Source of the DNA: a bacterium
Lineage (GTDB): Bacteria; Hinthialibacterota; Hinthialibacteria; Hinthialibacterales; Hinthialibacteraceae
Length of the DNA: 64,000 bases
Direction of reading: 5' to 3'
Assembly (NCBI GenBank): GCA_016125385.1
Contig: WGLV01000013.1
Span: 26,006 to 90,005, forward strand
Shown: one piece after another, positions 56,345 through 57,721 of the stretch
Layout of the letters: each line of letters starts with the position of its first letter
Position numbering within the stretch: position 1 is the first letter of the stretch
Position numbers and translations under genes: made by a program
Notes under the pieces: model-generated
Databases searched by the model: none
The model's input: only the letters and a program-made list of their open reading frames with translations
What the model was told of the DNA's origin: nothing

Positions 56345-57721
56345 ATGGAACAATATCACAAGCGCCGTTACAATGAACGACTGGAATACCGTACCTCCGG
56401 GGAGAAACCGATGACCGTTATGGATTTGCCCGTCATTCAGCCCACGCGCGTCAAGCCGCTGCAGTCGGTGTTAATCAAACCGACCGGCGCCGACTGCAAC
56501 CTCGATTGCGTCTACTGCTTCTACCTCGAAAAAGCCGAGCTCTACCCCAACGCCAAAGTCCATCGCATGAGCGTCGAAGTGTTGGAAGAAATGGTCCGCC
56601 AGATTATGAACGACGGCGGACAGCAGGTGTCGTTCGGCTGGCAGGGCGGCGAACCCACCATGATGGGAGTCGATTTTTTTCGCAAGGCGGTTGAATTCCA
56701 ACAGAAGTACGGCCGGCGCGGCCAGGTGGTCGGCAACGGCCTGCAAACCAACGGCCTGCTGATTAACGAAGAATGGTGCGAATTTCTTCGGGAATACCAG
56801 TTTCTGGTGGGGCTGTCGCTCGACGGGCCTGAACACATTCACGACAAATACCGTTTCACCAAGGGCGGTCGCCCCTCGTGGGAACGCGTGCGCGAATCGG
56901 GACGACTGATGCTCGACCGGGGCGTCGCGGTCAACGCGCTGGTGGTGGTCAACGATTATTCGTGCAACTACGCCGATGAAATCTATGATTTTCATAAAGA
57001 CATGGGGTTTGAATTCATGCAGTTCATCCCCTGCGTCGAACTCGATCACGCCGACTCAAGCCGAGCGGCGTCCTGGTCGGTTTCGGCGGAGCAGTACGGG
57101 CGTTTTCTCTGCGATATCTTCGACCGCTGGAAGGCCGATTTCCGCGATGGAAAACCCACGACCTCTGTCCGCTGGATCGATTCGGTCTTTCACACCTACG
57201 TCGGTATGCAGCCGCCGGAATGCACTCTGTTGCAGGAATGCGGATGTTACGTGGTGGTCGAACACAACGGCGACATCTATTCATGCGACTTCTTCGTCGA
57301 ACCCGAGTGGAAACTGGGTAACCTGACCGAAGGCCGCATCATTGAGATGCTCAACAGCGAGCGTCAGCAGGAATTCGGCGTATGGAAATCGAAACTGCCG
57401 CCTGAATGCCCCGAATGCCAGTGGTTGACGCACTGCTGGGGCGGTTGCACCAAGGACCGGCTGCGCGATCCGCATGACCGGGGTTCGAATCACTTTTGCC
57501 AGTCATACATCATGTTCTTTGAGCACGCCGACGCCGAATTACGGCGGCTGGCCGACGAATGGCTGGAAAACCAGCAACGCGAACACGACGCCGCCGAGCG
57601 CCGTCTGCGCGAGCTGCGTCAATCCGTATCCGCCTCAACGCCCCCGGCGCCCGAGGTGGGACGAAACGAGCCCTGCCCCTGCGGCAGCGGCAAAAAATAT
57701 AAAAAATGCTGTGGAAAATGA
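56345..57721 (+). CDS. Radical SAM / SPASM-domain maturase (anaerobic sulfatase-maturating-enzyme-like) with C-terminal SEC-C zinc-finger motif
   Basis: [10 protein letters not shown] (CxxxCxxC radical-SAM cluster). Multiple downstream Cys clusters of a SPASM domain (CTLLQECGC...SCDFF; [14 protein letters not shown]). The last 20 aa, [17 protein letters not shown], match the SecA C-terminal SEC-C motif. An alternative start is at 56411 (MTVMDLPV). Confidence 0.8.
   Translation: [458 protein letters not shown]

What the first reader, a model, noticed from the sequence alone, without database searches (positions are those of the whole stretch)
56345..57721. Radical-SAM/SPASM (anSME-like) maturase fused to a SecA-type SEC-C zinc-finger tail
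The enzyme has the CxxxCxxC radical-SAM motif and SPASM cysteine clusters typical of anaerobic sulfatase-maturating enzymes. Its C-terminus (about 57600-57721) is a coiled-coil-like helix followed by [17 protein letters not shown], essentially the canonical SEC-C motif that in SecA binds SecB/ribosomes via a zinc site. Formylglycine generation must occur on unfolded sulfatase precursors before export. A SEC-C tail could tether the maturase to SecB-bound or ribosome-bound preproteins, coupling maturation to targeting. I am not aware that this fusion has been described.
Basis: partly seen in the sequence, partly recalled or inferred. Interest (0 to 1): 0.6.

Follow-up and report, generated by a model that had tools for sequence, protein, structure and literature searches.

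The report
Sulfatase maturase with SecA-type docking tail
This gene encodes an ordinary anaerobic sulfatase-activating enzyme with a SecA-like metal-binding knuckle on a flexible C-terminal tail; the fusion is common across bacteria and some archaea but apparently undiscussed in the literature, and it most likely parks the enzyme on the ribosome so it can modify sulfatases before they fold.

Summary
ORF 56345-57721 (+) is an anaerobic sulfatase-maturating enzyme (anSME): TIGR03942 scores 436 bits against a cutoff of 349, and the model matches anSMEcpe with TM 0.93. It ends in a SecA-type SEC-C/MBD (PF02810, 39 bits against a cutoff of 20; 18 of 20 residues match the SecA peptide crystallised with SecB). 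No precursor peptide and no sulfatase lies in the window.

The fusion is common. It occurs in 119 of the 120 closest homologues, about a third of the nearest 150 family clusters, and 52 of 80 genome loci across more than 10 phyla, including Methanothrix. Some relatives also carry an N-terminal SurA-like/parvulin chaperone module.

Sulfatases encoded beside tail-bearing anSMEs carry Tat-type signals, Sec/lipoprotein-type signals, or no signal peptide at all. All nine in the window's own clade have twin-arginine motifs, and six pass TIGR01409. The tail therefore does not track Sec/SecB export.

Ribosome docking fits best. Published work shows that SecA and YecA MBDs bind ribosomes, and the SecA tail crosslinks near the exit tunnel. 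Docking would allow maturation before folding. This is inferred, not shown.

I rate it a new variant of a known kind, of moderate interest, and experimentally testable.

The parts
56345..57721 (+). anSME-MBD gene (longest ORF, 458 aa; probable real start ATG 56411 or 56420; stop 57719-57721)
56495..56518 (+). CxxxCxxC motif (C51, C55, C58) for the radical-SAM [4Fe-4S] cluster; aligns with C15/C19/C22 of anSMEcpe
   Evidence: invariant in alignment A2
56489..56983 (+). Radical SAM core domain (residues 49-213)
   Evidence: Foldseek match to 4K36-4K39
57239..57499 (+). SPASM domain (residues 299-385) with eight invariant Cys for two auxiliary [4Fe-4S] clusters, and the Cys-Asp pair that aligns with C276-D277 of anSMEcpe
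   Evidence: (TIGR04085)
57557..57661 (+). Linker (residues ~405-439): a charged helical extension of the last core helix followed by a Pro/Ala/Ser-rich stretch. Its length and sequence are not conserved among homologues, like the flexible linker of the SecA C-terminal tail.
57662..57718 (+). SecA-type metal-binding domain (SEC-C, residues 440-458): ligands C444, C446, C455, C456; conserved S448 and Y452; basic surface residues R441, K450, K451, K453, K454

Best explanation
Shown: the gene encodes a cytoplasmic anaerobic sulfatase-maturating enzyme. It is a radical SAM/SPASM enzyme with three [4Fe-4S] sites that oxidises the Cys (or Ser) of the C/S-x-P/A-x-R motif of sulfatases to formylglycine. 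Its last helix runs on into a non-conserved linker that ends in a SecA-type metal-binding domain (MBD). Also shown: the architecture is widespread, and the non-ligand surface residues of the MBD are as conserved as in SecA. Inferred: the MBD is a docking module that holds the maturase on the ribosome near the polypeptide exit. This has been demonstrated for the isolated SecA tail and, MBD-dependently, for YecA/AscA, and it is presumed for the methionine aminopeptidases that carry an MBD. The FGly motif lies about 50-60 residues into the mature sulfatase. From the exit site the enzyme could reach it as it emerges and before the roughly 450-residue domain folds, whatever the later fate of the protein (Tat export, Sec export or cytoplasmic retention). 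In relatives the same logic is extended by an N-terminal SurA-like/parvulin chaperone module. In bacteria that have SecB, the same knuckle could additionally bind SecB.
For: Identity. Sulfatases lie directly beside the gene in same-clade loci (L003, L004, L009, L010, L012, L018).

MBD conservation across anSMEs that share only 35-45% identity in the core: R-4 85-98%, N-3 91-100%, S+4 97-100%, K+7 97-100%, Y/F+8 about 95%, K+9 93-100%. The linker varies, with 34-78 residues from the last core Cys to the first MBD Cys in typical proteins.

The tail is present in 119/120 close homologues, 48/150 cluster representatives and 52/80 genome loci, and in both anSME paralogues of locus L066.

Neighbouring substrates fall into all three topological classes, including at least 14 without any signal peptide and Tat-type ones in the window's clade. 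The tail also occurs in Methanothrix. Together these point to a partner common to all, such as the ribosome.

Literature: SUMO fused to the SecA C-terminal tail cosediments with 70S ribosomes, this requires the metal-ligand cysteines, and it crosslinks to uL23 at the exit tunnel; 52 SecB-less species keep the SecA MBD (PMC6620043). YecA/AscA binds ribosomes and SecB in an MBD-dependent way. Methionine aminopeptidases of many bacteria carry an MBD. FGly is made while the chain is still unfolded (PMC5066984). A single anSME can serve hundreds of sulfatases (PMC6388578).

Independent fusion of a SurA_N plus parvulin chaperone module to the N-terminus of the same enzymes.
Against: No binding data exist for any anSME tail, so the mechanism rests on analogy. 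About two thirds of anSME clusters, including the characterised AtsB, ChuR and anSMEcpe, work without the tail, and tail-less enzymes also sit beside Tat-type sulfatases (L006, L008, L025). The tail is therefore an enhancement, not a necessity. Reported MBD-ribosome affinity is only micromolar. MBD binding to archaeal ribosomes is untested. The window holds no sulfatase, so the substrates of this particular enzyme are unknown. The NJ-tree pattern (39 state changes on 201 tips) shows frequent loss or gain, which could also mean weak selection.
Confidence: 0.45

Rival explanations
1. One reading: the MBD binds SecB (or SecB-bound or SecA-bound preproteins) and couples formylglycine formation to Sec-dependent export.
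For: 18 of 20 residues are identical to the H. influenzae SecA peptide crystallised on SecB (1OZB). The YecA MBD binds SecB. About 11 of 42 neighbouring sulfatases have Sec/lipoprotein-like signals, including all the Ser-type ones in the Rikenellaceae/Bacteroidales loci.
Against: At least 14 neighbouring sulfatases have no signal peptide. About 10 carry twin-arginine signals, including 9 of 9 with RR motifs in the window's clade, 6 of which pass TIGR01409. The fusion occurs in Methanothrix archaea. Many SecB-less bacteria keep MBDs (PMC6620043). I could not test whether this organism has SecB.
Confidence: 0.15
2. The knuckle is a functional metal centre rather than a docking site. It would be a Cys4 Fe (rubredoxin-like) or Zn site acting as an electron relay to the radical SAM cluster, as an O2/ROS sensor that switches the oxygen-labile enzyme, or as an iron reservoir for cluster repair.
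For: SecA-like MBDs bind iron in vivo (bioRxiv 10.1101/613315). The fourth ligand here is Cys, giving a Cys4 site, in 77-94% of anSME tails. YchJ, which carries MBD-like motifs, is reported to be a ROS sensor, although the switch described there is a disulfide through Cys149 (PMC13377102). anSMEs need an external reductant.
Against: Non-ligand basic surface residues are conserved exactly as in SecA, which a redox centre would not require. Linker length and sequence vary widely, which does not fit a fixed electron-transfer geometry. Characterised anSMEs turn over without the tail.
Confidence: 0.12
3. The basic tail targets the enzyme to anionic surfaces in general (membrane phospholipids or nucleic acid), or acts as an autoinhibitory or stabilising appendage as in SecA, with no specific link to nascent chains.
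For: The SecA C-terminal tail autoinhibits SecA, and partner binding relieves this (PMC6620043). The tail is strongly basic (KKYKKCCGK). Frequent gain and loss suggests an accessory role.
Against: Cytoplasmic substrates give no reason for membrane localisation. Strict conservation of the whole SecA-like motif argues for a specific conserved partner.
Confidence: 0.12
4. The enzyme is a RiPP/peptide-modifying SPASM maturase rather than a sulfatase maturase.
For: No sulfatase lies in the 64-kb window. DynA/DarW-type models give partial scores.
Against: The TIGR03942 equivalog model scores above its cutoff, while DynA scores 213 against 450 and DarW 174 against 650. There is no precursor ORF. Same-clade homologues are adjacent to PF00884 sulfatases. 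The fold matches anSMEcpe with TM 0.93.
Confidence: 0.02

Closest known systems
anSMEcpe (Clostridium perfringens, PDB 4K36-4K39), AtsB (Klebsiella), ChuR/anSMEbt (Bacteroides thetaiotaomicron)
   Same: Same family (TIGR03942), same fold (Foldseek TM 0.91-0.93, 36% identity), same RS-cluster motif, the same eight SPASM cysteines and the same Cys-Asp catalytic pair.
   Different: anSMEcpe ends at the last core helix. The window protein adds about 55 residues: linker plus SecA-type MBD. Some relatives also add an N-terminal SurA_N/parvulin module.
C-terminal tail of SecA (flexible linker plus MBD; PDB 1SX0, 1TM6, 1OZB)
   Same: A variable linker followed by a near-identical knuckle, GRN[DE][13 protein letters not shown][CH]G, at the extreme C-terminus. 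The Cys-Cys ending is also seen in the B. subtilis SecA chain 1TF2.
   Different: It is attached to a radical SAM enzyme, not a translocation ATPase. Its partners are untested.
YecA/AscA, and methionine aminopeptidases with an MBD
   Same: Non-SecA proteins that use a C-terminal SecA-like MBD. YecA binds ribosomes and SecB through it, and MAP is a nascent-chain-processing enzyme.
   Different: The catalytic or chaperone domains are different, and neither is a sulfatase maturase.
Trigger factor, and the eukaryotic FGE acting in the ER (conceptual analogues)
   Same: The SurA_N-parvulin-anSME-MBD relatives combine a PPIase/chaperone, a modifying enzyme and a putative ribosome anchor, as trigger factor combines a PPIase with ribosome docking. 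Eukaryotic FGE modifies sulfatases while they are still unfolded, around the time of translocation (established knowledge; for the 'unfolded' point).
   Different: There is no homology to trigger factor or FGE. The analogy is functional only and is inferred.

Membership tests
Anaerobic sulfatase-maturating enzyme (TIGR03942) | Scores above the curated cutoff of the equivalog HMM | tested here: met
   436.4 bits against a cutoff of 349.45
Anaerobic sulfatase-maturating enzyme (TIGR03942) | CxxxCxxC radical-SAM cluster motif | tested here: met
   C51/C55/C58 align with C15/C19/C22 of 4K36 and are invariant in 75 homologues
Anaerobic sulfatase-maturating enzyme (TIGR03942) | SPASM domain with cysteines for two fully ligated auxiliary [4Fe-4S] clusters, and the Cys-Asp pair at the active site | tested here: met
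   PF13186 and TIGR04085 hits. C268, C274, C289, D290, C330, C333, C339, C343 and C360 (433-aa numbering) are invariant
Anaerobic sulfatase-maturating enzyme (TIGR03942) | anSME fold | tested here: met
   AF2 model pLDDT 94.7; Foldseek 4K39 E 8e-37, TM 0.93 normalised to the target
Anaerobic sulfatase-maturating enzyme (TIGR03942) | Cognate sulfatase substrate with a C/S-x-P/A-x-R motif in the genome | tested here: inconclusive
   None in the 64-kb window. PF00884 sulfatases lie directly adjacent in same-clade loci L003, L004, L009, L010, L012 and L018
Anaerobic sulfatase-maturating enzyme (TIGR03942) | Converts Cys/Ser to formylglycine | not testable with these tools
   Needs an enzyme assay
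SecA-type metal-binding domain (Pfam PF02810 SEC-C) | Scores above the Pfam gathering threshold | tested here: met
   39.4 bits against 20.4, covering the full 19-position model
SecA-type metal-binding domain (Pfam PF02810 SEC-C) | CxCx8C(C/H) ligand pattern with the conserved Ser and Tyr (E. coli SecA S889, Y893) | tested here: met
   C444, C446, C455, C456; S448, Y452 (residue roles)
SecA-type metal-binding domain (Pfam PF02810 SEC-C) | Located at the extreme C-terminus after a poorly conserved flexible linker | tested here: met
SecA-type metal-binding domain (Pfam PF02810 SEC-C) | Binds Zn/Fe, and binds SecB and/or ribosomes | not testable with these tools
   Only literature precedent for SecA and YecA
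RiPP-modifying radical SAM/SPASM maturases (DynA, DarE/DarW, cyclophane/sactipeptide types) | Scores above the family HMM cutoff | tested here: not met
   DynA 213 against 450, DarW 174 against 650, DarE 142 against 650; all others lower
RiPP-modifying radical SAM/SPASM maturases (DynA, DarE/DarW, cyclophane/sactipeptide types) | Adjacent small precursor-peptide gene | tested here: not met
   No credible ORF of 20 aa or more in either intergenic region

The most novel reading that the evidence does not exclude
MBD-bearing anSMEs, and the SurA_N-parvulin-anSME-MBD triple fusions, are ribosome-associated, co-translationally acting radical SAM enzymes. The knuckle docks near the exit tunnel and the enzyme converts Cys/Ser to formylglycine on the nascent sulfatase chain, in both bacteria and archaea and independently of the export route. 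To my knowledge this would be the first radical SAM enzyme shown to act at the ribosome exit. It would explain how one anSME can service hundreds of sulfatases before they fold.
Probability: 0.35. Interest if true: 0.75.

Novelty: new variant of a known kind. Interest (0 to 1): 0.5.

Why it matters
Sulfatases are inactive unless formylglycine is installed while the chain is still unfolded. How a single cytoplasmic, oxygen-labile anSME finds tens to hundreds of different substrates in time is not understood, and this limits heterologous production of active sulfatases. A large share of natural anSMEs carry a portable SecA-like docking knuckle, sometimes with a chaperone/PPIase module as well. 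That gives a concrete and cheap hypothesis to test: ribosome cosedimentation and FGly yield with and without the last 20 residues. It also adds a defined catalytic client to the proposed 'MBD toolkit' of ribosome- and Sec-associated factors. Practically, choosing or engineering MBD-bearing anSMEs might improve sulfatase activation in expression hosts.

Tried and rejected
- I looked for sulfatases (FGly-motif regex plus Pfam on 20 large ORFs) and for other MBD proteins in the window and found none. The enzyme's own substrates therefore remain unknown.
- An exact-sequence lookup of P0001 found no contig on record.
- I looked for a stand-alone SurA_N/parvulin chaperone gene in the window or beside anSMEs in 80 loci. 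It occurs only as fusions, in L007 and L027.
- I tested whether tail presence tracks operon linkage to sulfatases. It does not: tail-bearing loci have 56 sulfatase-like ORFs in 826 kb and tail-less loci 14 in 417 kb.
- I considered whether the MBD could be a pseudo-substrate. The CPCGS sequence does not fit C/S-x-P/A-x-R, so I rejected this from the sequence alone.
- The Pfam TAT_signal model was too insensitive (one borderline hit at 22.3 against 22.7), so I used TIGR01409 instead.
- The RiPP-maturase reading is rejected.
- I ran no further search on the organism's taxonomy. Its nearest named anSME relatives are Omnitrophota and Hinthialibacter MAGs.
- SecB and SecA-MBD status of this genome could not be assessed from a 64-kb window.
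- The AF2 output gives no coordinates or PAE, so I could not judge whether the knuckle packs on the core.

Full report

Yes. The window holds an ORF at 56345..57721 (+) of 458 aa. Pfam finds Radical_SAM (residues 49-213), SPASM (301-359) and a full-length SEC-C motif (PF02810, residues 440-458, 39.4 bits against a gathering cutoff of 20.4, E 5.4e-10). The NCBIfam equivalog model TIGR03942 'anaerobic sulfatase maturase' scores 436 bits against a cutoff of 349. Every peptide-maturase model (DynA, DarW, DarE, cyclophane and sactipeptide types) falls far below its own cutoff.

Against PDB sequences the core matches anSMEcpe (4K36, E 2.9e-80). The last 22 residues match the SecA zinc-binding domain:
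- Window protein: [22 protein letters not shown]
- E. coli SecA (1SX0): [22 protein letters not shown]
- H. influenzae SecA peptide co-crystallised with SecB (1OZB): [20 protein letters not shown]

The Cys-Cys ending also occurs in B. subtilis SecA.

An AlphaFold2 model built on a 75-sequence alignment is confident (pLDDT 94.7). It shows the last core helix running on as one long helix (residues 360-406 of the 433-aa form), then a loop and the knuckle. Foldseek returns anSMEcpe with TM 0.91-0.93 over about 370 columns, which leaves about 60 residues as the extra tail.

The real start is probably ATG 56411, which has GGGAG 6 nt upstream, or 56420, the start of the 100%-identical NCBI protein P0001. 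Neither intergenic region holds a credible precursor ORF.

**2. How common is the fusion?**

It is very common.
- 119 of the 120 best database hits (56-100% identity) carry PF02810. They are annotated simply as 'anaerobic sulfatase maturase', from Omnitrophota, Planctomycetota, KSB1, Bacteroidetes and Hinthialibacter MAGs.
- Among the best 150 representatives of 50%-identity clusters, 48 end in a CxC...C[CH] knuckle. That is about a third, or slightly more once fragments are discounted.
- Among the best 80 loci from one-genome-per-species GTDB contigs, 52 carry it. They include Omnitrophota, Aminicenantes/Acidobacteriota, Planctomycetota, Poribacteria, Latescibacterota, Chloroflexota, Armatimonadota, Gemmatimonadota, Desulfobacterota, Bacillota and Bacteroidales.
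- Two independent Methanothrix MAGs also carry it. One is on a 425-kb contig that also encodes a family-B DNA polymerase.
- One Acidobacteriota locus (L066) encodes two divergent anSME paralogues, and both carry an MBD.
- On an NJ tree of 201 core domains (106 with the tail), the character needs 39 changes, against a mean of 67 (minimum 51) when shuffled. The tail is therefore phylogenetically structured but has been gained or lost many times.

**3. Anatomy of the tail**

Across anSMEs whose cores share only about 35-45% identity, the knuckle is [V/P/I][11 protein letters not shown][K/R]-K-[Y/F]-K-x-C-[C/H]-G. Its non-ligand positions are 85-100% conserved. The linker has no conserved sequence and varies in length, typically 34-78 residues from the last core Cys to the first MBD Cys. 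This mirrors the organisation of the SecA C-terminal tail. It implies selection for a conserved external partner rather than merely for a metal site.

**4. Context**

The window holds no sulfatase and no second MBD protein. The gene is solitary. It lies between a divergently transcribed TPR gene plus an unknown membrane protein, with a BMC/PduL/aldehyde dehydrogenase cluster beyond them, and a degenerate GGDEF-like gene downstream.

In relatives the functional link to sulfatases is clear. PF00884 sulfatases sit immediately next to the maturase in many loci.

I classified 42 full-length neighbouring sulfatases of tail-bearing anSMEs:
- About 10 have twin-arginine signals.
- About 11 have Sec/lipoprotein-like signals, including all the Ser-type ones in Rikenellaceae/Bacteroidales.
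- At least 14 have no signal peptide at all. Pfam places sulfatase profile position 1 at residue 3-5 in the three that I checked.

In the window's own clade (at least 54% identity) all nine neighbouring sulfatases carry RRxF[LIM]K-type motifs. Six pass the curated TIGR01409 Tat-signal model and one is borderline. Tail-less anSMEs also sit next to Tat-type sulfatases (L006, L008, L025).

**5. What this means for mechanism**

The SecB/Sec half does not fit several observations: substrates that use Tat or stay in the cytoplasm, archaeal hosts that lack SecA and SecB, and the published finding that many SecB-less bacteria retain SecA MBDs (PMC6620043).

The ribosome half fits all of the observations.
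- The isolated SecA tail cosediments with 70S ribosomes. This needs the metal-ligand cysteines, and the tail crosslinks to uL23 at the exit tunnel.
- YecA/AscA binds ribosomes (and SecB) in an MBD-dependent way.
- Methionine aminopeptidases of many bacteria, which are nascent-chain enzymes, carry the same MBD.
- FGly must be made while the chain is still unfolded (PMC5066984).
- A single anSME may serve hundreds of sulfatases, including more than 100 cytoplasmic ones (PMC6388578).

The FGly motif lies about 50-60 residues into the mature domain, so it emerges early in synthesis. I therefore favour ribosome docking for co-translational, or at least pre-folding, maturation, with a confidence of about 0.45. 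SecB binding remains a possible add-on in SecB-containing taxa. None of the binding steps has been shown for any anSME.

**6. Independent support from a second fusion**

About 16 of the 120 closest homologues are 600-730 aa long. They have an N-terminal SurA_N-like domain plus a parvulin PPIase, without a signal peptide, in front of the anSME, and they keep the C-terminal MBD. Variants exist that lack the PPIase or lack the MBD. A holdase/PPIase, a modifying enzyme and a putative ribosome anchor in one polypeptide point to an enzyme that handles unfolded chains. The essential proline in C/S-x-P-x-R makes the PPIase fusion intriguing, but that link is speculation.

**7. Rivals**

- A metal or redox role. 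MBDs bind iron in vivo, the site here is Cys4, and YchJ is reported to be a ROS sensor. The SecA-like conservation of basic surface residues and the variable linker weaken this reading.
- General binding to anionic surfaces, or autoinhibition as in SecA.
- A RiPP maturase, which is effectively refuted.

**8. Novelty**

Five full-text searches found no paper linking SEC-C or SecA-like MBDs to sulfatase maturases. The library covers open-access papers only, so absence is not proof. The architecture is already visible in precomputed Pfam annotations. The generic idea that MBDs are a toolkit bringing new functions to the Sec machinery and ribosomes, with 'at least 18 different functions', has been voiced without naming this enzyme.

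I rate it a new variant of a known kind. It is a well-founded and easily testable hypothesis, not a categorical surprise. The new elements from this analysis are three: the breadth of the fusion, the chaperone triple fusion, and the finding that substrates include Tat-type and cytoplasmic sulfatases. The last of these redirects the mechanism from Sec targeting to the ribosome.

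Noticed in passing
Homologues P0029, P0041, P0121 (719-730 aa), P0124, P0042, P0117; loci L007, L027, L083: anSMEs with an N-terminal SurA_N-like domain plus a parvulin PPIase and no signal peptide, with or without the C-terminal MBD. Some variants have lost the PPIase domain but keep the SurA_N-like helices.
   Followed up: partly
L011, L014, L015, L016, L017, L021, L024 (Marinilabiliales/Prolixibacteraceae anSMEs): These tail-less anSMEs share a different conserved C-terminal peptide (...G.YNAF.DFM[KG]), which may be an alternative short docking motif.
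   Followed up: no
window 54732-56220 (-); L081/L082 8448-9800; L001 79-450: A 166-aa TPR protein with an N-terminal hydrophobic helix, plus an unknown 327-aa membrane protein, is transcribed divergently from the anSME. This arrangement is conserved in relatives whose anSMEs share 69-73% identity, although the rest of the neighbourhood differs. The downstream GGDEF-like gene is conserved in L001.
   Followed up: partly
L066 1867-3645 and 9989-11296: Two divergent anSME paralogues lie in one Acidobacteriota locus among ~795-aa sulfatases, and both end in a SecA-type MBD.
   Followed up: partly
L062 10001-11275: In one Methanotrichaceae MAG the longest ORF of the anSME starts after the CxxxCxxC region, although tblastn matches from residue 10. 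This may be a frameshift, a pseudogene or an assembly error. The L075 Methanothrix copy is intact.
   Followed up: no
window 50909-54612 (-): A fragment of a bacterial microcompartment locus: aldehyde dehydrogenase, an unknown 295-aa protein, PduL-type phosphate propanoyltransferase and a BMC-H shell protein.
   Followed up: no
window 10342-18017 (+): Two tandem giant paralogous proteins (1300 and 1254 aa) that combine TPR repeats with DUF3857, and in the first also a transglutaminase core and DUF3858.
   Followed up: no
window 57824-58507 (+): A 227-aa protein with only a weak partial GGDEF match (27 bits, profile positions 80-150). It is probably a degenerate, non-catalytic GGDEF domain and lies immediately downstream of the anSME.
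   Followed up: no
window 37745-41545 (+) and 60538-63339 (+): A 1266-aa GH116-like glycoside hydrolase, and a class II (B12-dependent) ribonucleotide reductase with a TSCPD domain. Both fit an anaerobic or facultative glycan-degrading lifestyle.
   Followed up: no
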